Assembly (NCBI GenBank): GCA_014729135.1
Contig: WJKK01000001.1
Coordinates: 260,588-324,587 of the forward strand
Direction: 5' to 3'
Source of the DNA: a candidate division WWE3 bacterium
GTDB taxonomy: Bacteria; Patescibacteriota; WWE3; UBA101185; UBA10185
DNA: 64,000 nucleotides
The notes beneath the pieces were generated by a model, which was given only the letters and a program-made list of their open reading frames with translations, made no database searches and had not been told where the DNA came from. This document shows, piece after piece, positions 2,943 to 41,227 of this stretch (within the stretch, counting starts at the first letter, position 1; each line of letters opens with the position of its first letter). The translations under genes were made by a program, and so were the position numbers.

Positions 2943-3947
2943 ATGTCTGAAAATGTAGCTAAGCCTAAGCAGGAAAAGTTAGTTTCACTAGTTATTCCTT
3001 GTTATAACGAAGAGAAAAATATAGAGCGTTATGAGGCGGAGCTAATTCCGGTTTTGGAGGATTTGCCTTATGATTACGAGGCTATCTTAGTGGATGACGG
3101 CTCTACAAAGGATGATACTTGGGGCGCTATTAAGCGTTTGTCGGAAAAGTTTGATACGGTGACGGGGTTGAAGCATTCGCGCAATTATGGGATGGGGGCA
3201 GCTTATCAGACGGGTTTTGACCATTCTAAGGGCGATTATGTAGTGGTGTATTCTTCGGATTTGGAGATTCCTCCTGTAGAGATTGCTAGAGTAGTGGCAA
3301 AAATGGACGAAGGTTTTGATCTTGTTAATACGCATCGTGTTGGTCGCTGGAGTGAAGGCGGAGGGCTGGCTTCTGCCATTAGGCGAGTTCCTTCTAAGAT
3401 TGCTAACGGCCTAATTAAAAGGATTTCCGGTGTTGAAATGCATGACACGGGGTCCGGATTGAAAGGCTTTAAGCGCTTTATCATTGAGAATTTGCGTATT
3501 TACGGAGATATGCATCGGTTTTTGCCTGCTTATGCGGGTCTTTACACCAAAAATTTCTGTGAGTTTGAAGTTGAATATCAGGAGCGTACCTATGGCGAGT
3601 CTGCCTATGGCTCTTTAATGCGAACTTTTAGCGTGTTTTTGGATCTTTTTACAATGAAGTTCATGCTTTCCTTTGCTACAAAGCCCTTCACTATGATGCC
3701 GGGGCGCTTGTTTGGCAGTACGGGATTAGTTTCATTTAGTGTTGGTTTTGTTGCTACTTTATATGCTTTGTTTTTGAAGTTTGGTTTAGGCCAGCCTATT
3801 GGTCAGCGTCCTTTGTTTATCGGGGGTCTTTTACTTACTGTTTTTGGAATGCAGTTAATTATGACCGGTCTTTTAGGAGAGCTTATGATGCGTACGTATT
3901 TTGAGAGTAGTCACAAAACCCCCTACATTGTTTCTGAAGAAGCCTAA
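2943..3947 (+). CDS. family 2 glycosyltransferase, polyprenol-phosphate sugar transferase type (GtrB/ArnC-like) with C-terminal TM helices
   Basis: VSLVIPCYNEEKNI ... VDDGSTKDDT are GT2 signatures (DxD context); C-terminal ~100 aa are hydrophobic. Confidence 0.8.
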   Translation: MSENVAKPKQEKLVSLVIPCYNEEKNIERYEAELIPVLEDLPYDYEAILVDDGSTKDDTWGAIKRLSEKFDTVTGLKHSRNYGMGAAYQTGFDHSKGDYVVVYSSDLEIPPVEIARVVAKMDEGFDLVNTHRVGRWSEGGGLASAIRRVPSKIANGLIKRISGVEMHDTGSGLKGFKRFIIENLRIYGDMHRFLPAYAGLYTKNFCEFEVEYQERTYGESAYGSLMRTFSVFLDLFTMKFMLSFATKPFTMMPGRLFGSTGLVSFSVGFVATLYALFLKFGLGQPIGQRPLFIGGLLLTVFGMQLIMTGLLGELMMRTYFESSHKTPYIVSEEA

Positions 3948-34219: not shown

Positions 34220-35989
34220 ATGACAGAACCAAAAACATTCCCTGGTAAACCCAAAACCACCTGGAACTTAGACCTCATAGGCAACACAACCCTCCAAAAA
34301 GTTCAAAAAGAAGCCAAGAAATTCATCGAAAAATGGAAAAAGCGCAAAGATTACCTCCAAAAACCCTCCATATTAAAAGAAGCTCTGGATGACTACAACC
34401 AATGGGAGGAAAAATACTCCATGGGAGGCGATGAAGCCTACAAACTGATACTAAAACTCACACTTGATCAAAACAACGCAAAATTAAAAGCTCAATACAA
34501 CAAACTTCATGAAAAATACATTGAACTCTACAACTCACTCCAGTTTTTTATGCTAAACATCTCAAAAATTCCGCCAAAGGAACAGCCAAAATTCCTAAAA
34601 GCACCGGAGCTTGCAAAATACCGTTACTTTTTAAAAGGTCAGTTTGAAATAGCTAAATACCTGCTTACCGAAAAGGAAGAGCGAATTCTAAACTTAAAAT
34701 CAAAAGTAGCCTTTGGCAATTGGGTGGACATGACAGAAAATCTTATTTCAAAAGAAACTCGTGACGGCAAAAGTTTCTCCGAAATCCTATCTGAAACAAG
34801 CGACCCTAATAAATCCAAGCGGGATAAAGCAGCAAAATGGCTAAATGAAATCTTTGAAAATCACATTGATCCGGGGGAGCATGAGTTAAATTCGGTTTTA
34901 GAAAACGCCAAAATTAATCAAAAGTTGCGCGGTTATAAGCGCCCTGATGAGCCTCGGCACGTTGGCGATGACATAGAAACCGAAGTAGTAGATGCTTTGC
35001 TTACGGCGGTAACTTCTCGTTATGACATTTCGCAAAAGTTTTATGAGTTAAAGGCTAAGCTTTTGGGCTTTGAGCAGCTGGAATATCACGAGCGCAATGT
35101 GCCTTATGGCAAGGCCGAGAAGGAGTATGAGTTTGAAGATGCTTTGGCACTTGTAAATGAGACTTTTTATGATTTGGATCCCGAGTTTGCCCAGTATTTT
35201 CATAACTATTTTAAGCAAGGTCAATTTGATGCCTTCCCCAAAAAAGGAAAAAGTTCAGGTGCAGCTTGCTTTTCCGGTTTAAAAACCCAGCCGATTTATA
35301 TCTATTTAAACTTCACAAAAAAGCTTAGAAACGTTACTACAATAGCGCATGAGATGGGACATGCAATTCATAGCGAGTTGGTTTTTAAGTCGCAGCCGGC
35401 TATTTATGCAGGCACTTCTTTGGCAACGGCAGAAACGGCTAGCACTTTAATGGAGGATTTTGTTGTTCAACGGATTCTGCATGACGCCGATGATGAGTTG
35501 AAGCTGGCACTCCAAATGGAGCAGCTTAATGATTCGGTTTCTACAATTCAGCGTCAAATTGCTTGTTATAAGTTTGAGCAAGAGCTTCATGAGAGTTTTC
35601 GCAGGGAGGGCTATCTTTCCAAGGAGCAAATTGGGGAGCTTTTTCAAAAGCACATGGCTGCTTATATGGGGGATTTTGTGGAGCAGTCAAAGGGTTCGCA
35701 AAATTGGTGGCTTTATTGGAGTCATATTCGCCGTCACTTTTATGTTTATTCTTATGCCAGCGGGCTTTTAATTTCTAAGTCGCTGCAAAAGCGTGTTAAG
35801 GAGACTCCGGAGTTTATAAAGGAGGTTAAGGAGGTTTTAGCTTTAGGTACTTCAAAATCCCCTAAGGATGCGTTTTTGGAGATAGACATTGACATTTCTA
35901 ATCCTGATTTTTGGTTGCAGGGTTTAAAGGAGCAGTCGCAGCTTTTAGATGACACTTGGACATTAGCGGAAAAACTTGGCAAAATATAG
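34220..35989 (+). CDS. pepF: oligoendopeptidase F (M3B family)
   Basis: HEMGHAIH zinc motif; ~590 aa M3B architecture. Confidence 0.85.
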   Translation: MTEPKTFPGKPKTTWNLDLIGNTTLQKVQKEAKKFIEKWKKRKDYLQKPSILKEALDDYNQWEEKYSMGGDEAYKLILKLTLDQNNAKLKAQYNKLHEKYIELYNSLQFFMLNISKIPPKEQPKFLKAPELAKYRYFLKGQFEIAKYLLTEKEERILNLKSKVAFGNWVDMTENLISKETRDGKSFSEILSETSDPNKSKRDKAAKWLNEIFENHIDPGEHELNSVLENAKINQKLRGYKRPDEPRHVGDDIETEVVDALLTAVTSRYDISQKFYELKAKLLGFEQLEYHERNVPYGKAEKEYEFEDALALVNETFYDLDPEFAQYFHNYFKQGQFDAFPKKGKSSGAACFSGLKTQPIYIYLNFTKKLRNVTTIAHEMGHAIHSELVFKSQPAIYAGTSLATAETASTLMEDFVVQRILHDADDELKLALQMEQLNDSVSTIQRQIACYKFEQELHESFRREGYLSKEQIGELFQKHMAAYMGDFVEQSKGSQNWWLYWSHIRRHFYVYSYASGLLISKSLQKRVKETPEFIKEVKEVLALGTSKSPKDAFLEIDIDISNPDFWLQGLKEQSQLLDDTWTLAEKLGKI

Positions 35990-37290
35990 GTATGGTGGAT
36001 AAAACAGCTAATTTGGAGGTGGGCCAACCCGACAATTCAGGCCAGGTTCAACCGACAGGAGACTTGGAAAATTCCTCGAACAAAATTGAAAATTCCGGTG
36101 AGGGCAATCAAAAAGCTTCTCCGAAGGGCAATCAAAAACAAAAAAAGCGTTTTCACATGTCATTTCTATTAAAACTTCTGCTACTTGGAGCAGCCGCTTT
36201 TCTAGCAGTTTTTGCTTACCTTGTGATAACTCAAAACCCTGCTGTGATGCGAGACGAGCTAGAACCTGAAGAGCCTCAAGTTATAACAAAGCCCGAGCTG
36301 GAAAATCCTATAAAGACGTACACAAGTGAAAAGTTTAAATTTTCGATTCAATATAATACTGACATTCATGAATTTGAGCGTCGTGCTGCTTTTTCAACAC
36401 AGCCTCCGCAGTTTGTTATTACGCATCAAGGAGCTAATCAGGCTGATTTAGACACGGAAAAGGACTTAACGGATGGTTACATTGTTAAAATTTCAGCTTA
36501 TGAAAATCCGGGAATTGATGCGCTTGTTTCGGCTCAAAGGAAGCGGGAAAAGTTTACGCTGGAGTGTCCGGAAATTACGGAGGTTCGGGAAATTTATTCT
36601 CGCAATATTGATGGCGCTGAAGCAAAAAGTTTTGAAGTTATTAATTGTCCGCAAAATTACGTAGAGAATTTTATTGGTTTTGGTGACGATGTTTTGGAGA
36701 TTACGCAGATTTATCGCGGGGATATTGGTTTTAAGCAAAGTTACAGAGCCCAAACGGATGAAATTGTTCGAAATTTTAAGTTGCTGCGGGATCCTGAGGA
36801 GGCTCCGGAAATAGCTTCGTTTGAAAGCCTTGAATATCAGCTTAGCTTTATCCATCCCGTTTTAAATGCTAAGTGTTGTTCGGTTACGGCTCCTTCTATT
36901 GAAGGGCTGGAGAAGGTGGTGGTTTTGGCGGATGCCTCCGAAACGGATGAGGAGGGTAATGTTTTAAACAAACTGGGGATTTTTGCATATCCGTCTAAAG
37001 GTAAGTCGTTTGATTTGTTTTTAAATGAGCAAAAGCAAGCGCTAATTCAGGAGTTTAAGATTGTTGAGGAGGAGAATCCTACAAATTTGCGTGAGGAGGT
37101 AGTTTCTGTAGGTGGTCGTGACGCTTATAAGTTGGTGAATTATGCTTGGTGGGGGGATATTGTGTTTTTGGAGCATCCTAATGCGAATTATTTTTTGGTG
37201 TTTGTTATTCCTGAAGATGCAACAGAGGATTTTTCGGCTGTAGTTGGGGAGATTTTCGCCTCCTTTGGATTTGTGGTTGAAGAGGAGTAG
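35956..37290 (+). CDS. hypothetical membrane-anchored extracytoplasmic protein
   Basis: Low-complexity N-terminus, TM LLKLLLLGAAAFLAVFAYLVI, ~350 aa extracellular region with no recognised motif. Confidence 0.4.
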   Translation: MDISGKTWQNIGMVDKTANLEVGQPDNSGQVQPTGDLENSSNKIENSGEGNQKASPKGNQKQKKRFHMSFLLKLLLLGAAAFLAVFAYLVITQNPAVMRDELEPEEPQVITKPELENPIKTYTSEKFKFSIQYNTDIHEFERRAAFSTQPPQFVITHQGANQADLDTEKDLTDGYIVKISAYENPGIDALVSAQRKREKFTLECPEITEVREIYSRNIDGAEAKSFEVINCPQNYVENFIGFGDDVLEITQIYRGDIGFKQSYRAQTDEIVRNFKLLRDPEEAPEIASFESLEYQLSFIHPVLNAKCCSVTAPSIEGLEKVVVLADASETDEEGNVLNKLGIFAYPSKGKSFDLFLNEQKQALIQEFKIVEEENPTNLREEVVSVGGRDAYKLVNYAWWGDIVFLEHPNANYFLVFVIPEDATEDFSAVVGEIFASFGFVVEEE

Positions 37291-37324
37291 AGAGCTGCAA
37301 GTCTTGGGCTTGTGTGCGAAGTTT

Positions 37325-37400
37325 TGGTGACCCCACGGGGAATTGAACCCCGGTTTTCGGGATGAGAACCCGATGTCCTAGTCCACTAGACGATGGGGCC
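37325..37400 (-). tRNA. tRNA-Glu (anticodon CUC), CCA encoded
   Basis: Reverse complement ggccccatcgtctagtggactaggacatcgggTTCTCATcccgaaaaccggggttcaattccccgtggggtcacca parallels E. coli tRNA-Glu; anticodon loop UUCUCAU. Confidence 0.75.
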
Positions 37401-37517
37401 TAAGGAAAACCGCAAAGCTTCGTCATTCTAACAAAAAAATCCTTGGTAGTTAAGCTTTAAATAGATTATCTTTTTGACGACTTCCGTGAATTAAAAAAGT
37501 AACCCTGTTCGAATAAC

Positions 37518-37934
37518 CTAAAACTTCACCAACTCCATCTCCTCAAACACCTCAAAATCCTTAACATTATTCGTTGCAATCTTATAAATAGAATTTGACA
37601 AGGCTGTTGCCACTAAATAGGCATCATATATCTTATTTGAAGTTACTTTGTACTTTTTAAGCAACCTAAAGAAATGTTCCCTTGTGTATATGTTAGGAGA
37701 AATATGTATGCATAAATCACTTACTCTTTTTACCGCTTCCATTGCATCCTTTAAAGAAGCCGTCTTTTTGTACTTTTCATGTGTAAGGACTCTAATTGCT
37801 TCGTTTATGTTTTGATCTGCTAAGGCAAGCTGGGGAAGATGAAGGTTTATGAATTCCCTTGCTTGCTGATTTAAGAGATCATTTTCATTTATAGAGAAGA
37901 TCAGAATATTTGTGTCCAGGAGGATTTCAGGCAT
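37518..37934 (-). CDS. PIN-domain ribonuclease (VapC-like toxin)
   Basis: MPEILLDTNILI N-terminal PIN signature with downstream acidic residues; 138 aa. Confidence 0.7.
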   Translation of the reverse strand: MPEILLDTNILIFSINENDLLNQQAREFINLHLPQLALADQNINEAIRVLTHEKYKKTASLKDAMEAVKRVSDLCIHISPNIYTREHFFRLLKKYKVTSNKIYDAYLVATALSNSIYKIATNNVKDFEVFEEMELVKF

Positions 37935-38591
37935 TTAGCTTTGGTAATAGTCCTCTCGTGTTAAATCGTGAGGAATATCCAGATCTAAGGTCATAAAGTT
38001 CACTTTTTTCTTACTGGGGATTTTCTTTCGTAACTCGTTTTTTTTCTGAGCTCTGAAAATATTTTTTCTGTAGTATTCCAGTTCCGCAATGGATTCTTTG
38101 ATATCTTCTAAGGCTCTGTGGTTCTTTTTCTTTTCGAACTTCGGAATTTCCGGGAACCATCTCTGAGCTAGAAGCTTAGTTGTAGTTATATCTATCAATC
38201 TGTAATGTAAGTAACTATCAAGTTTTTTCATATAGTTTTTTAAGAACATCCTATCCATATATATTGAGTTTCCACATAAAGGAGATTCACCTTCTGCAAC
38301 ATGTTTTTTAATAAATTCCAAAATTTCTTTTTCAGCGCTTTCCTCTGTATATGAAGATTCTTTCATTTTTTCGATGAATCCTGAGTCAAAAAAAGTTTCC
38401 TTCATAAAGGGATTTGTTACATCAAATAGGCTTTCCTCTTGTTTTATGATTATTTCTGGGCCTTCTGCAATAACTTCAAGATTTTCATTTGTTATGAGGC
38501 ACGCTATTTCTGTGATTCGATCTGTAAATGGATCCAGTCCTGTCATTTCAAGATCCATCCAAACCAGATTACTTGCCTTTCTGTGAGTCAT
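37935..38591 (-). CDS. orn: oligoribonuclease (DEDDh 3'-5' exonuclease) with a ~37 aa basic/acidic C-terminal extension
   Basis: WMDLEMTGLDP (Exo I), HRALEDIKESIAELEYYR (Exo III H-x4-D); 218 aa versus ~181 aa typical. Confidence 0.8.
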   Translation of the reverse strand: MTHRKASNLVWMDLEMTGLDPFTDRITEIACLITNENLEVIAEGPEIIIKQEESLFDVTNPFMKETFFDSGFIEKMKESSYTEESAEKEILEFIKKHVAEGESPLCGNSIYMDRMFLKNYMKKLDSYLHYRLIDITTTKLLAQRWFPEIPKFEKKKNHRALEDIKESIAELEYYRKNIFRAQKKNELRKKIPSKKKVNFMTLDLDIPHDLTREDYYQS

Positions 38592-38630
38592 ATCGGAATT
38601 TTATCATAAAGTGCATGCTATAATCCCCCT

Positions 38631-39476
38631 ATGACAACAACAGAACTCAAACAAGATATTATCTCTGTTGAAACGCGGGCCTGGTTAGACAATCCTCAAA
38701 AGATCAAGACAGCTTTGGAAAATCAAGGAGCCAAGTTAATTTCCTCTTTCACAATAGAAGACGAATTTTATGCGGATTTAAGCAATCTTTCAGCAAAAAG
38801 TCACACATTTGACCAAAAACAAGAAGCTGCGCGAATCCGTAAGATCACAAACGCCAATGATTCCATGTTTGTAGCTTGTGTAAAGTCTGCCTTAGAAGAA
38901 ACTCCCGAGAATTTAAACCTGCATGACATGACGCAAATAACCTACTACGAAGAGGCTCCCGTGGAAAAGGCGCAAAAGGATCGTTTGGTTAAAAAGTTGG
39001 CGGAAAAAGGCTTTCCGACTCTGCTTAAAAAGATAACTAAAGAGCGAACGGCCTATACTTTGAATAATTTTACAGTCACAATTGACGAGATTAAAGGATT
39101 TAGTACGGCTATAGAAGTTAGAACTTCGCTTTCTAATCCGGCGGAAGCTCCGGAGGTTAAGATGACAGAGATTGAATTTTTAAAGGCTTTGGGTATTCCA
39201 CAGGAGGATATTATTGAGAAAAGTTACACTCACCTGATTTTAGATGCGCACATTAGGTCGAATCCGGATTTGAAGCTGCCACATTTGAAGGAGGAGTTGA
39301 AGCGCCTAAAGGAGAAGCGTAAGGAGCTTTTGTTGCGAAGTGAGGAGCATTACAGAGAAGGTGGCGATGGGTGGCACGATAATGCAAGCTGGGATATTCT
39401 AATGGAGCGTATTAAGGTGCTTGATGCTAAGATTTCTAATTTGAAAATGGAGATTTTTGAGTTGCGCCGGAAATAG
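38631..39476 (+). CDS. hypothetical protein; C-terminal coiled-coil segment with a Gre-factor-like GDxxENAxY-type motif
   Basis: GGDGWHDNASWDILMERIKVLDAKISNL resembles the GreA N-terminal motif (MGDISENAEYDAARQEQ in the greA nearby). Confidence 0.35.
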   Translation: MTTTELKQDIISVETRAWLDNPQKIKTALENQGAKLISSFTIEDEFYADLSNLSAKSHTFDQKQEAARIRKITNANDSMFVACVKSALEETPENLNLHDMTQITYYEEAPVEKAQKDRLVKKLAEKGFPTLLKKITKERTAYTLNNFTVTIDEIKGFSTAIEVRTSLSNPAEAPEVKMTEIEFLKALGIPQEDIIEKSYTHLILDAHIRSNPDLKLPHLKEELKRLKEKRKELLLRSEEHYREGGDGWHDNASWDILMERIKVLDAKISNLKMEIFELRRK

Positions 39477-40735: not shown

Positions 40736-41227
40736 TTGATTAAAATTTACGGAGGAAATATGTCCGATACTGTCTACATAACAAAAGAAGGTTTAGAAAA
40801 ATTAAAGAAACAACTTACGGAACTCAAGGAAGAGCGTCGTCCGGCTGTTGCCAAAAGGATTAAAGAGGCAAGAGAGATGGGTGATATTTCCGAGAATGCC
40901 GAGTATGATGCTGCACGTCAGGAGCAGGCCTTTATTGAAGGTAAGATCTCGGAATTAGAGGAAGTTATTAAGGATGCTGAGGTAGTTGAGGAAGGTGCTA
41001 ATGGAGGCGATGGAGTTGTTCGTGTAGGCGCCAAGGTAACGGTGCATATTGAGGGTGAGGAAGAGACGTTTCATTTGGTAGGTGCTCATGAGGCTAATCC
41101 TATGGAGAACAAGATTTCGCATGAGTCTCCTTTGGGTGCTTCTTTGATGGGCAAAAAGGTTGGGGATAGCTTTGAGGTTGAAGCTCCTATTGGGAAGTTG
41201 ATTTATAAGATTAAGGCTGTTGAGTAG
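40736..41227 (+). CDS. greA: transcription elongation factor GreA
   Basis: MGDISENAEYDAARQEQAFIEGKISELE plus C-terminal FKBP-like domain; 163 aa. Confidence 0.85.
   Translation: MIKIYGGNMSDTVYITKEGLEKLKKQLTELKEERRPAVAKRIKEAREMGDISENAEYDAARQEQAFIEGKISELEEVIKDAEVVEEGANGGDGVVRVGAKVTVHIEGEEETFHLVGAHEANPMENKISHESPLGASLMGKKVGDSFEVEAPIGKLIYKIKAVE

What the first reader, a model, noticed from the sequence alone, without database searches (positions are those of the whole stretch)
37518..38591. Oligoribonuclease with a C-terminal tail directly abutting a PIN-domain toxin gene
orn (218 aa) is about 37 aa longer than canonical Orn. Its stop is immediately adjacent to the start of a VapC-like PIN gene on the same strand, and no separate antitoxin ORF lies between or upstream. 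The Orn tail (KKIPSKKKVNFMTLDLDIPHDLTREDYYQS) might act as an in-cis antitoxin-like segment, or the PIN RNase may act together with Orn in RNA turnover. Either would be an unusual arrangement.
Basis: inference. Interest (0 to 1): 0.5.

Follow-up and report, generated by a model that had tools for sequence, protein, structure and literature searches.

The report
Antitoxin tail fused onto oligoribonuclease
In this candidate-division WWE3 genome, the toxin-binding half of a small antitoxin has been fused in frame onto the end of the housekeeping enzyme oligoribonuclease, so that enzyme probably now keeps the neighbouring PIN-domain toxin in check; no second genome with this orn fusion was found.

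Summary
Close Orn orthologues are 180-182 aa.

The tail has a clear origin. The sequenced close PIN relatives, and nearly all of 80 more distant loci, carry a ~75-aa ORF directly upstream. Its N-terminal half looks ribbon-helix-helix (RHH) and its C-terminal motif is conserved. Orn residues 178-218 are homologous to that C-terminal half (BLASTP E=2e-14) and keep the family's invariant Arg and Tyr. The RHH half is absent from the window.

Both enzymes look intact: the PIN keeps its conserved acidic residues and a VapC fold, and Orn keeps its DEDDh residues. The best reading is a VapBC-type toxin-antitoxin module whose antitoxin lost its DNA-binding domain and now rides on Orn.

orn-PIN adjacency is not conserved elsewhere, so a joint RNA-turnover pathway is not supported. 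Binding and neutralisation are inferred, because the AlphaFold2 docking surrogates were inconclusive. The fusion frame also depends on an A8 run in a single MAG assembly.

A Type III restriction enzyme in another genome carries the same kind of tail. This is a new variant of a known kind, of moderate interest.

The parts
37935..38591 (-). orn::vapB' fusion ORF, 218 aa including the stop: oligoribonuclease plus an antitoxin-derived tail
   Evidence: ORF list. NCBIfam Orn equivalog 239.6 bits against a cutoff of 106. 100% identical to NCBI MBD3365989.1, annotated 'oligoribonuclease [candidate division WWE3 bacterium]'.
38052..38591 (-). Orn core, residues 1-180, corresponding to the full length of the orthologues
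   Evidence: Alignment A1: orthologues end at the position of R180/A181, and the DEDDh residues D13, E15, D113, H158 and D163 are invariant. PDB Orn chains align to residues 6-180.
38037..38063 (-). Junction zone, residues N177-N185 (NIFRAQKKN). The breakpoint cannot be placed more exactly. The zone contains an A8 homopolymer at 38038..38045.
   Evidence: Orn orthologues end ...N/H-L/I-F-K/R, and the antitoxins read ...IFNRALxxEL. DNA alignment shows ATTTTC(AAC)AGAGC shared with the L007 antitoxin. These 8 residues are 25% identical to the antitoxins, against 75-88% among true antitoxins. Sequence read.
37938..38036 (-). Antitoxin-derived segment, residues E186-S218 (ELRKKIPSKKKVNFMTLDLDIPHDLTREDYYQS), inferred to be the toxin-binding part
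   Evidence: BLASTP of Orn218 against the L007 antitoxin gives E=2e-14, and against L009 E=5e-12. tblastn within the window gives E about 1e-12. The segment is 58-64% identical to the same segment of four true antitoxins. The family-invariant R212 and Y216 are kept.
37932..37937 (-). TAAATG stop/start junction, the native antitoxin-toxin gene boundary, probably giving translational coupling
   Evidence: Sequence read. In relatives the antitoxin stop lies between 19 nt of overlap and a 4-nt gap from the PIN start in most loci.
37518..37934 (-). PIN-domain (VapC-like) toxin gene, 138 aa
   Evidence: Pfam PIN E=1.4e-7. D7, E45, D104 and D126 are invariant across 12 relatives. The AlphaFold2 PIN part has pLDDT above 90, and the Foldseek top hits are VapC chains of solved VapBC complexes (7vwo_A TM 0.85, 3tnd_A and others).
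37325..37400 (-). tRNA-Glu(CTC), 117 nt downstream of the PIN gene on the same strand; a conserved neighbour of this toxin-antitoxin module
   Evidence: ARAGORN. The same order, antitoxin-PIN-tRNA-Glu(ctc), occurs in WWE3 UBA1401 (L007).

Best explanation
This is a VapBC-type type II toxin-antitoxin module whose antitoxin gene has been truncated and fused to the upstream housekeeping gene.

In related genomes the PIN toxin gene is preceded by a ~75-aa antitoxin. That antitoxin has an N-terminal ribbon-helix-helix (RHH) DNA-binding and dimerisation half and a conserved C-terminal half that, by analogy with solved VapB antitoxins, binds the toxin. In this WWE3 genome a deletion or rearrangement removed the orn stop codon, any spacer and the RHH half. 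It joined the remaining ~33-41 codons in frame to the last codons of orn.

Orn is therefore made with the toxin-neutralising peptide as a C-terminal tail. The PIN gene keeps its native, translationally coupled position (TAAATG).

Shown: the homology and boundaries of the tail, the absence of the RHH half and of any separate antitoxin in the window, and intact catalytic residues in both Orn and PIN.

Inferred:
- The tail binds the PIN protein and blocks its active site, probably using the invariant R212 and Y216.
- The Orn homodimer replaces the RHH dimer as scaffold.
- Operator-based autoregulation is lost, and the pair is expressed from the orn promoter.
- Loss or truncation of the orn 3' end would release the toxin.
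For: 1. The tail matches the antitoxin C-terminal half. BLASTP gives E=2e-14 and 5e-12, and tblastn shows it is the only hit in the window. The upstream 74-77-aa antitoxins of the closest PIN relatives end ...ELQKxxPSKKKKIDFxxxxLDIPHDLxRxDYY.
2. Differential conservation: the 34 residues presumed to bind the toxin are 58-64% identical to true antitoxins, comparable to the PIN (47-60%). The preceding former RHH-helix residues are 25% identical, against 75-88% among true antitoxins. The invariant R and Y are kept.
3. The N-terminal halves of stand-alone family members are RHH-like. Of 40 members, 10 hit Pfam RHH_1 (best E 2e-5), 5 hit Antitox_RHH and 2 hit VapB_antitoxin. The profile also hits PDB CopG/omega RHH proteins. 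This half is absent here.
4. The PIN is intact and VapC-like.
5. The Orn core is intact.
6. The module sits at an orthologous place. The order antitoxin-PIN-tRNA-Glu(ctc) occurs in WWE3 UBA1401, and a homologue of the 444-aa neighbour lies next to the module in L001.
7. Established knowledge: C-terminal segments of antitoxins are the toxin-binding parts and can suffice for binding. In the crystal structures only VapB5 53-86 is seen on VapC5, and CcdA 37-72 on CcdB (table in PMC4803016).
8. An independent precedent for grafting this tail onto a large enzyme exists: the L068 Type III restriction enzyme.
Against: - Only one genome and one assembly carry the fusion. The protein cluster has a single member, and the junction sequence is absent from the metagenome collection.
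- The in-frame fusion depends on the length of an A8 run at 38038..38045.
- AlphaFold2 single-chain surrogates (tail-PIN and PIN-tail) left the tail at pLDDT 41-67, so there is no confident docking.
- No expression, binding or toxicity data exist.
- The remaining ~800 kb of the genome could not be searched for a trans-acting antitoxin paralogue.
- A tail anchored to a folded, presumably stable enzyme may not behave as a labile antitoxin, so the module may be permanently switched off rather than regulated.
Confidence: 0.7

Rival explanations
1. Decaying remnant. The deletion was a neutral product of genome reduction, and the module is no longer functional. The PIN gene is silent, weakly active or neutralised in trans, and the tail is a passenger that has not yet eroded.
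For: The fusion is unique to one genome. Nothing shows selection directly. AlphaFold2 did not dock the tail. Chromosomal toxin-antitoxin modules commonly decay (general knowledge).
Against: The PIN ORF is full length with all conserved acidic residues. The toxin-binding motif, including its invariant R and Y, is retained, while the adjacent former RHH residues have diverged. That pattern is expected under continued selection for neutralisation, not neutral decay. The native TAAATG coupling is intact.
Confidence: 0.15
2. Sequence or assembly artefact. A miscalled homopolymer (A8 at 38038..38045) or a local mis-assembly creates an apparent in-frame fusion. In reality Orn would stop a few codons later and the tail would be read in another frame or belong to a separate small ORF.
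For: The genome is a MAG with a single assembly. The A8 run lies exactly in the junction. With A7, by my reading, a 49-aa alternative-frame ORF starting at 38160 would run into the tail frame, giving an overlapping ORF of roughly 75 aa.
Against: Whatever the length of the run, the RHH half is absent in all frames. A canonical antitoxin therefore cannot be restored by a 1-nt correction. The alternative-frame N-terminus overlaps the conserved orn coding sequence, has no RHH similarity and has no Shine-Dalgarno motif. No repeat long enough to cause mis-assembly was seen in the junction sequence as read; no repeat search was run.
Confidence: 0.07
3. Functional RNase partnership. The PIN endonuclease and the Orn exonuclease form a dedicated RNA-degradation pair, and the tail is merely a docking peptide, with no toxin-antitoxin logic.
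For: Both are RNases, are co-oriented and are translationally coupled. A 'double-ribonuclease' toxin-antitoxin pair has been described (PMC10714953).
Against: No orn-PIN synteny exists anywhere else: 0 of 80 PIN loci, and none of the orn relatives examined. The tail descends from an antitoxin whose homologues accompany this PIN family as small stand-alone RHH proteins.
Confidence: 0.05
4. Separate mini-antitoxin. The conserved motif is translated on its own from an internal start, GTG V197 or ATG M200, as a 19-22-aa peptide, and the read-through from orn is incidental.
For: In-frame GTG and ATG codons precede the LDLDIPHDLTREDYY motif.
Against: No Shine-Dalgarno-like sequence lies upstream, where the sequence is ...CCCAGTAAGAAAAAAGTGAACTTTATG. 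Methionine is not conserved at that position in relatives, which have I/V/F/A. Such a peptide would lack the conserved KKI-x-F part of the motif.
Confidence: 0.03

Closest known systems
RHH-type VapBC / FitAB type II toxin-antitoxin modules (e.g. M. tuberculosis VapBC complexes 7vwo, 3dbo, 6a7v; N. gonorrhoeae FitAB 2bsq)
   Same: The toxin is a PIN domain with conserved acidic residues and a VapC fold. The antitoxin family has an RHH-like N-terminus and a C-terminal tail. The antitoxin gene abuts or overlaps the toxin gene.
   Different: There is no stand-alone antitoxin gene here. The RHH DNA-binding and dimerisation domain is missing, and the C-terminal tail is carried by a 180-aa exoribonuclease. 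Operator-based autoregulation is therefore not possible.
Unannotated ~75-aa antitoxin family of Patescibacteria and other phyla (e.g. P0133-P0252; the antitoxins in L001, L002, L007, L009)
   Same: The Orn tail is a homologue of the C-terminal half of this family, with 58-64% identity to the closest members and the invariant R and Y kept.
   Different: All 120 listed members are 59-88-aa stand-alone proteins. The window copy lacks the N-terminal half and its own start codon.
Multidomain antitoxins in which a small module neutralises and another domain has a different role (PanA-containing antitoxins; Ernits et al. 2023, PMC10440598)
   Same: The architecture is modular, with a short neutralising element attached to an unrelated domain.
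   Different: There the partner domain is a dedicated antitoxin or sensor domain recurring in many systems. Here it is a housekeeping enzyme, and the arrangement is known from one genome.
Single-polypeptide (fused) toxin-antitoxin proteins such as EzeT (discussed in PMC4803016)
   Same: Gene fusion has reshaped a toxin-antitoxin pair.
   Different: In those proteins toxin and antitoxin share one chain. Here the toxin remains a separate protein and the antitoxin is fused to a third, unrelated protein.
L068 (JADZEA010000197.1): Type III restriction enzyme Res subunit with a VapB-like tail followed by a PIN gene
   Same: A large enzyme of 898 aa ends in the same family of C-terminal motif (...KKSFKTFRLGGKFDKQDVRKLAYE). 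The PADLOC REase_III match (E=1.5e-133) covers protein residues 1-859. The PIN gene overlaps the end of the ORF by 8 nt.
   Different: The carrier enzyme is different and belongs to a defence system. The tail belongs to a different subfamily. This case is also known from one contig only.
Double-ribonuclease toxin-antitoxin pair Aave_1720/Aave_1719 (PMC10714953)
   Same: The antitoxin-bearing protein is itself a ribonuclease.
   Different: There the antitoxin's RNase activity targets the toxin mRNA and belongs to the antitoxin fold. Here the RNase is a pre-existing housekeeping Orn with a grafted peptide.

Membership tests
Oligoribonuclease (Orn, DEDDh; NCBIfam NF003765) | Full-length match above the curated cutoff | tested here: met
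   239.6 bits against a cutoff of 106, residues 4-185. PDB Orn chains match at E about 1e-53.
Oligoribonuclease (Orn, DEDDh; NCBIfam NF003765) | DEDDh catalytic residues | tested here: met
   D13, E15, D113, H158 and D163 are invariant in alignment A1.
Oligoribonuclease (Orn, DEDDh; NCBIfam NF003765) | Single-domain protein of about 180 aa ending shortly after the ELxYYR helix | tested here: not met
   43 residues follow the motif, against 5-23 in the other Orn homologues where the motif was recognised (89 of the 120 listed, counting the window's own protein).
VapBC type II toxin-antitoxin module | Toxin is a PIN domain with conserved acidic active-site residues | tested here: met
   Pfam PF01850 scores 32.5 bits against a cutoff of 23.6. 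D7, E45, D104 and D126 are invariant.
VapBC type II toxin-antitoxin module | Toxin reaches the curated VapC subfamily model (TIGR00028) | tested here: not met
   36 bits against a cutoff of 73.6. The protein is a divergent PIN clade, VapC-like by fold only.
VapBC type II toxin-antitoxin module | VapC-like three-dimensional fold | tested here: met
   The AlphaFold2 model has pLDDT above 90 over the PIN part. Foldseek finds 36 PDB hits at E<=1e-3, almost all VapC/FitB-type PIN toxins (one is a Cas9-complex chain). The best is 7vwo_A with TM 0.85.
VapBC type II toxin-antitoxin module | Separate small antitoxin gene immediately upstream of the toxin | tested here: not met
   No such ORF occurs in the window. 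It is present in the sequenced close relatives and in nearly all of 80 loci.
VapBC type II toxin-antitoxin module | Antitoxin N-terminal DNA-binding domain (RHH, AbrB, Phd or HTH) | tested here: not met
   The RHH-like half of the family has no counterpart in any frame of the window.
VapBC type II toxin-antitoxin module | Antitoxin C-terminal toxin-binding segment | tested here: met
   Met by homology: E=2e-14 to the L007 antitoxin, with the invariant R212 and Y216 kept.
VapBC type II toxin-antitoxin module | Toxin inhibits growth and is neutralised by direct binding of the antitoxin | not testable with these tools
   This needs co-expression and binding assays. The AlphaFold2 single-chain surrogates were inconclusive.
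Fused single-chain toxin-antitoxin proteins (EzeT-like) | Toxin and antitoxin in one polypeptide | tested here: not met
   A TAA stop separates the Orn tail from the PIN.

The most novel reading that the evidence does not exclude
The fusion is a selected design rather than an accident. A housekeeping or defence enzyme serves as the carrier, and possibly the sensor, of a portable PIN-neutralising peptide. PIN activity would then be tied to the abundance, folding, proteolysis or substrate state of Orn, for example nanoRNA or dinucleotide load. The independent Type III restriction enzyme-tail-PIN arrangement in L068 would be a second instance of a general 'enzyme-borne antitoxin' architecture.
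Probability: 0.12. Interest if true: 0.75.

Novelty: new variant of a known kind. Interest (0 to 1): 0.45.

Why it matters
If the tail works as inferred, nature has done the minimal-antitoxin experiment. About 33 residues of an antitoxin, detached from its DNA-binding and dimerisation domain and grafted onto an unrelated enzyme, would be enough to keep a PIN toxin in check.

Three consequences follow:
- It would delimit the neutralising element of a large antitoxin family of Patescibacteria and other phyla. None of the 120 listed members carries an informative name, and only two have any Pfam assignment.
- It would show one way toxin-antitoxin modules are remodelled in reduced CPR genomes.
- It would create an unusual dependency in which the 3' end of a housekeeping gene cannot be lost without releasing a toxin.

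Together with the restriction-enzyme example, it suggests searching for antitoxin peptides hidden as C-terminal tails of larger proteins upstream of 'orphan' toxins.

Tried and rejected
- **AlphaFold2 docking surrogates.** Two single-chain constructs were run with a PIN-only alignment: tail-PIN (A6) and PIN-tail (A8). The PIN part was confident, but the tail stayed at pLDDT 41-67, so the result is inconclusive.
- **Block-diagonal alignment for the docking runs.** MAFFT mis-aligned the antitoxins onto the PIN or Orn (A4, A5, A7).
- **phmmer of the 42-aa tail against 1.8 billion representatives.** It returned only two long proteins matched in 5-11 stretches, probably low-complexity (K-rich) matches, so it is a dead end.
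- **Junction sequence in metagenome contigs.** There was no exact match to the 28-nt query, so there is no independent confirmation of the fusion.
- **Relatives of the L068 restriction enzyme-tail protein in metagenomes.** None were found.
- **Contig look-up for the window's PIN protein.** The protein is not on record.
- **Conserved orn-PIN synteny.** It is absent, so the joint-pathway idea was rejected.
- **Promoter and terminator scan of 37200..38900.** It gave 5 promoter-like sites against 4.6 expected, which is no signal. No internal promoter or terminator separates the Orn core from the tail.
- **Internal ribosome-binding sites.** None is convincing, either for the tail or for the alternative-frame ORF at 38160.
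- **Literature.** Searches for Orn-antitoxin fusions, antitoxins fused to housekeeping genes and toxin-antitoxin modules in CPR bacteria found no description of this arrangement.
- **Antitoxin family against PDB.** The single L007 antitoxin gives no significant hit. A 40-member profile gives only weak RHH hits.
Full report
**1. What is in the sequence**

Both genes lie on the minus strand. An ORF of 218 aa runs 38591..37935. Its TAA stop is followed without a gap by the ATG of a 138-aa ORF at 37934..37518. A tRNA-Glu(CTC) gene lies 117 nt further downstream on the same strand, at 37400..37325.

The first protein is a bona fide oligoribonuclease. The NCBIfam equivalog NF003765 scores 239.6 bits against a cutoff of 106 and covers residues 4-185. 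Pfam RNase_T matches at E=2.6e-27.

The second protein is a PIN domain (PF01850, 32.5 bits against a cutoff of 23.6). Both are 100% identical to NCBI entries MBD3365989.1 and MBD3365988.1 from an 864-kb contig of a candidate division WWE3 (CPR) MAG.

**2. The extension is real and unique**

The closest Orn orthologues (61-69% identity) are 180-182 aa and end at ...ELKYYRKHLFK/R. The window protein continues for about 38 more residues.

The ELxYYR motif was recognised in 89 of the 120 listed Orn homologues, counting the window's own protein. In the other 88, 5-23 residues follow it. Here 43 follow. Solved Orn structures align only to residues 6-180, or to 191 for the human enzyme. The DEDDh residues (D13, E15, D113, H158, D163) are invariant, so the enzyme core is intact.

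**3. Where the tail comes from**

The PIN protein has only a dozen detectable relatives in the 5.8-billion-protein set. Each of the four I could place on a contig is preceded by a 74-77-aa ORF that abuts or overlaps the PIN start.

The upstream ORFs I could translate (the P0122 contig has no DNA on record) end in the same motif. The L001 copy reads MNKMKVRTTLYLDKRLKKLADIQAIQENTTLQAIFNRALRAELQKVVPSKKKKIDFISFKLDIPHDLKRADYYE. The Orn tail reads ...NIFRAQKKNELRKKIPSKKKVNFMTLDLDIPHDLTREDYYQS.

- BLASTP of Orn218 against the antitoxin of WWE3 UBA1401 (L007) gives E=2e-14.
- BLASTP against L009 gives E=5e-12, with 54% identity over 41 residues.

I then scanned one genome per species, which returned 80 loci with PIN relatives. 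Nearly all have such an upstream ORF of about 60-90 aa. The C-terminal motifs can be aligned across phyla, and one Arg and one Tyr are invariant. The tail keeps both, as R212 and Y216.

The N-terminal halves of the Patescibacteria-type members look like ribbon-helix-helix (RHH) domains:
- 10 of 40 members hit Pfam RHH_1 (best E 2e-5).
- 5 hit Antitox_RHH.
- 2 hit VapB_antitoxin.
- A family profile hits PDB CopG and omega RHH proteins.

In other phyla the same C-terminal motif follows different N-terminal modules, which is the usual modular build of antitoxins. A profile search with the C-terminal halves found 223 proteins. The 120 listed are all stand-alone proteins of 59-88 aa, and almost none carry a Pfam assignment or an informative name.

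**4. What is missing**

tblastn of five family antitoxins against all frames of the 64-kb window finds only the orn tail (38060..37941, E about 1e-12). It finds no RHH half and no second PIN gene.

The antitoxin of this module therefore exists only as residues ~178/186-218 of Orn. The unusual junction lies about 40 codons upstream.

**5. The junction**

Orn orthologues end ...N/H-L/I-F-K/R. The antitoxins read ...IFNRALxxELQK. The window reads NIFRAQKKNELRK.

At the DNA level the window has ATTTTC-AGAGCT where the L007 antitoxin has ATTTTCAACAGAGCC. This is compatible with a deletion at a short microhomology, but the closest relatives are too diverged to fix the breakpoint. I place it within residues 177-185 (38063..38037).

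That zone contains an A8 run at 38038..38045. The reading frame of the fusion depends on the length of that run. This is the main technical caveat for a sequence known from one MAG.

Even with a 1-nt error, however, no canonical antitoxin could be restored. The RHH half is absent in every frame, and the sequence upstream of the junction is conserved orn coding sequence.

**6. Signs that the tail is still used**

The 34 residues from E186 are 58-64% identical to the same segment of the four closest true antitoxins. That is comparable to the PIN proteins (47-60%), and close to what true antitoxins show among themselves (59-82%).

The eight residues before them correspond to the end of RHH helix 2. 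These are 75-88% identical among true antitoxins but only 25% identical here, with hydrophobic core positions replaced by Q, K and K.

The PIN ORF is full length. D7, E45, D104 and D126 are invariant among 12 relatives. Its AlphaFold2 model has pLDDT above 90 and matches VapC chains of solved VapBC complexes, with 7vwo_A the best at TM 0.85, followed by 3tnd, 6a7v, 2bsq and others.

An intact toxin next to a conserved neutralising motif and a degenerated linker is what continued selection for neutralisation would produce. This remains an inference from a single sequence.

**7. Evolutionary setting**

The module is not a recent arrival next to orn. WWE3 UBA1401 (L007) has antitoxin-PIN-tRNA-Glu(CTC) in the same order and orientation as the window's tail-PIN-tRNA-Glu(CTC).

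In L001 a homologue of the window's 444-aa neighbour lies directly beside the module, and a tRNA-Glu(CTC) gene is 2 kb away. What changed in the window's lineage is the upstream side.

Orn relatives elsewhere have no PIN neighbour. None of the 80 PIN loci has orn within 3 kb. The orn-PIN adjacency is therefore lineage-specific, which argues against a conserved Orn-PIN RNA-turnover pathway.

**8. Most likely mechanism**

Shown:
- Orn carries the C-terminal half of the cognate antitoxin.
- There is no separate antitoxin in the window.
- Both catalytic domains are intact.
- The native coupled gene boundary is kept.

Inferred from knowledge of the family:
- C-terminal segments of VapB-type and other antitoxins are the toxin-binding elements and can bind on their own. 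Only VapB5 53-86 is seen on VapC5, and CcdA 37-72 on CcdB (PMC4803016).
- The Orn tail therefore probably binds the PIN protein and occludes its active site.
- Without the RHH domain the pair cannot repress its own promoter, so it must be expressed with orn.
- Termination-reinitiation at TAAATG would keep the PIN no more abundant than Orn-tail.

More speculative:
- Orn is a homodimer in solved structures (my own knowledge of the Orn literature, not tested here). It could replace the RHH dimer as scaffold for a VapC dimer.
- Whether the tail is still protease-labile decides between a regulated and a permanently locked module.

**9. What failed**

- Single-chain AlphaFold2 surrogates for a complex, tried in both orders, did not dock the tail (pLDDT 41-67).
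- Proper unpaired alignments could not be built with the tools.
- No independent assembly contains the junction.
- phmmer with the tail alone found only low-complexity hits.
- The literature searches found no description of an Orn-antitoxin fusion.

**10. Comparison with known systems**

By its parts this is a VapBC-like type II module. It fails two defining features of the family: a separate small antitoxin gene and an antitoxin DNA-binding domain. The toxin is also below the curated VapC subfamily cutoff (36 bits against 73.6).

It is not a fused single-chain toxin-antitoxin protein of the EzeT type, because a stop codon separates the two proteins. It resembles multidomain antitoxins in which a small module neutralises while another domain does something else (PMC10440598). 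Here, though, the other domain is a housekeeping RNase.

A second, independent case turned up in passing. In L068, an 898-aa Type III restriction enzyme ends in the same kind of tail, and a PIN gene overlaps its end by 8 nt. The PADLOC REase_III match has E=1.5e-133 and covers protein residues 1-859.

**11. Verdict**

This is a new variant of a known kind, seen in a single genome, with function inferred rather than shown. Interest is moderate (0.45). It is a neat natural minimal-antitoxin graft and a pointer to hidden antitoxin tails upstream of apparently orphan toxins. It is not a new principle unless the arrangement proves to be selected and recurrent.

Noticed in passing
L068 300..2996 (+) and 2989..3405 (+) (JADZEA010000197.1, 'bacterium isolate SJ803'): An 898-aa Type III restriction enzyme Res subunit (PADLOC REase_III E=1.5e-133, match covering protein residues 1-859) carries a ~39-aa C-terminal tail with the same antitoxin motif (...KKSFKTFRLGGKFDKQDVRKLAYE). 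It is followed by a PIN gene overlapping by 8 nt. This is a second, independent enzyme-borne antitoxin tail. No relatives were found in metagenome contigs.
   Followed up: partly
window 38631..39476 (+): The divergent neighbour of orn is a 281-aa CYTH-domain protein (Pfam E=1.7e-10; NCBIfam cyaB just below cutoff). Its C-terminal ~65 residues resemble the N-terminal coiled coil of GreA. BLASTP against the window's own GreA (40736..41227) gives E=3e-6, including the loop motif; Pfam GreA_GreB_N gives E=0.009, below threshold. It may be a CYTH enzyme directed to the RNA polymerase secondary channel.
   Followed up: partly
window 37325..37400 (-); L007 3478..3552; L001 5390..5465: The toxin-antitoxin module is linked to tRNA-Glu(CTC) in the window and in WWE3 UBA1401, in the same order and strand. 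In L001 it lies beside a homologue of the window's 444-aa protein (35956..37290). The locus is therefore older than the fusion.
   Followed up: partly
L007 2034..2678 (-): In WWE3 UBA1401 the gene divergently upstream of the intact antitoxin is also a DEDDh exonuclease. It is DnaQ/epsilon-like (214 aa), not Orn (BLASTP to Orn E=5e-4). This is probably coincidence, but it puts the same superfamily next to the same module.
   Followed up: partly
P0133-P0252 and the upstream ORFs in L001-L086: The ~75-aa antitoxin family (223 hits at E<=0.01) is essentially unannotated. The entries are named 'hypothetical protein', almost none has a precomputed Pfam domain, and NCBIfam gives no hit. Across phyla its conserved C-terminal motif is combined with different N-terminal modules, some RHH-like and others not.
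   Followed up: partly
window 37400..38600: G+C drops to 31-36% across the PIN gene and orn, against about 38-47% in the flanking genes. This could reflect foreign origin of the segment or gene-specific composition.
   Followed up: no
window 38038..38045: An A8 homopolymer (minus strand CAGAAAAAAAACGAG) sits exactly in the orn/antitoxin junction. A 1-nt change would uncouple the tail from Orn. This is relevant both as a possible sequencing-error site and as a potential slippage site.
   Followed up: partly
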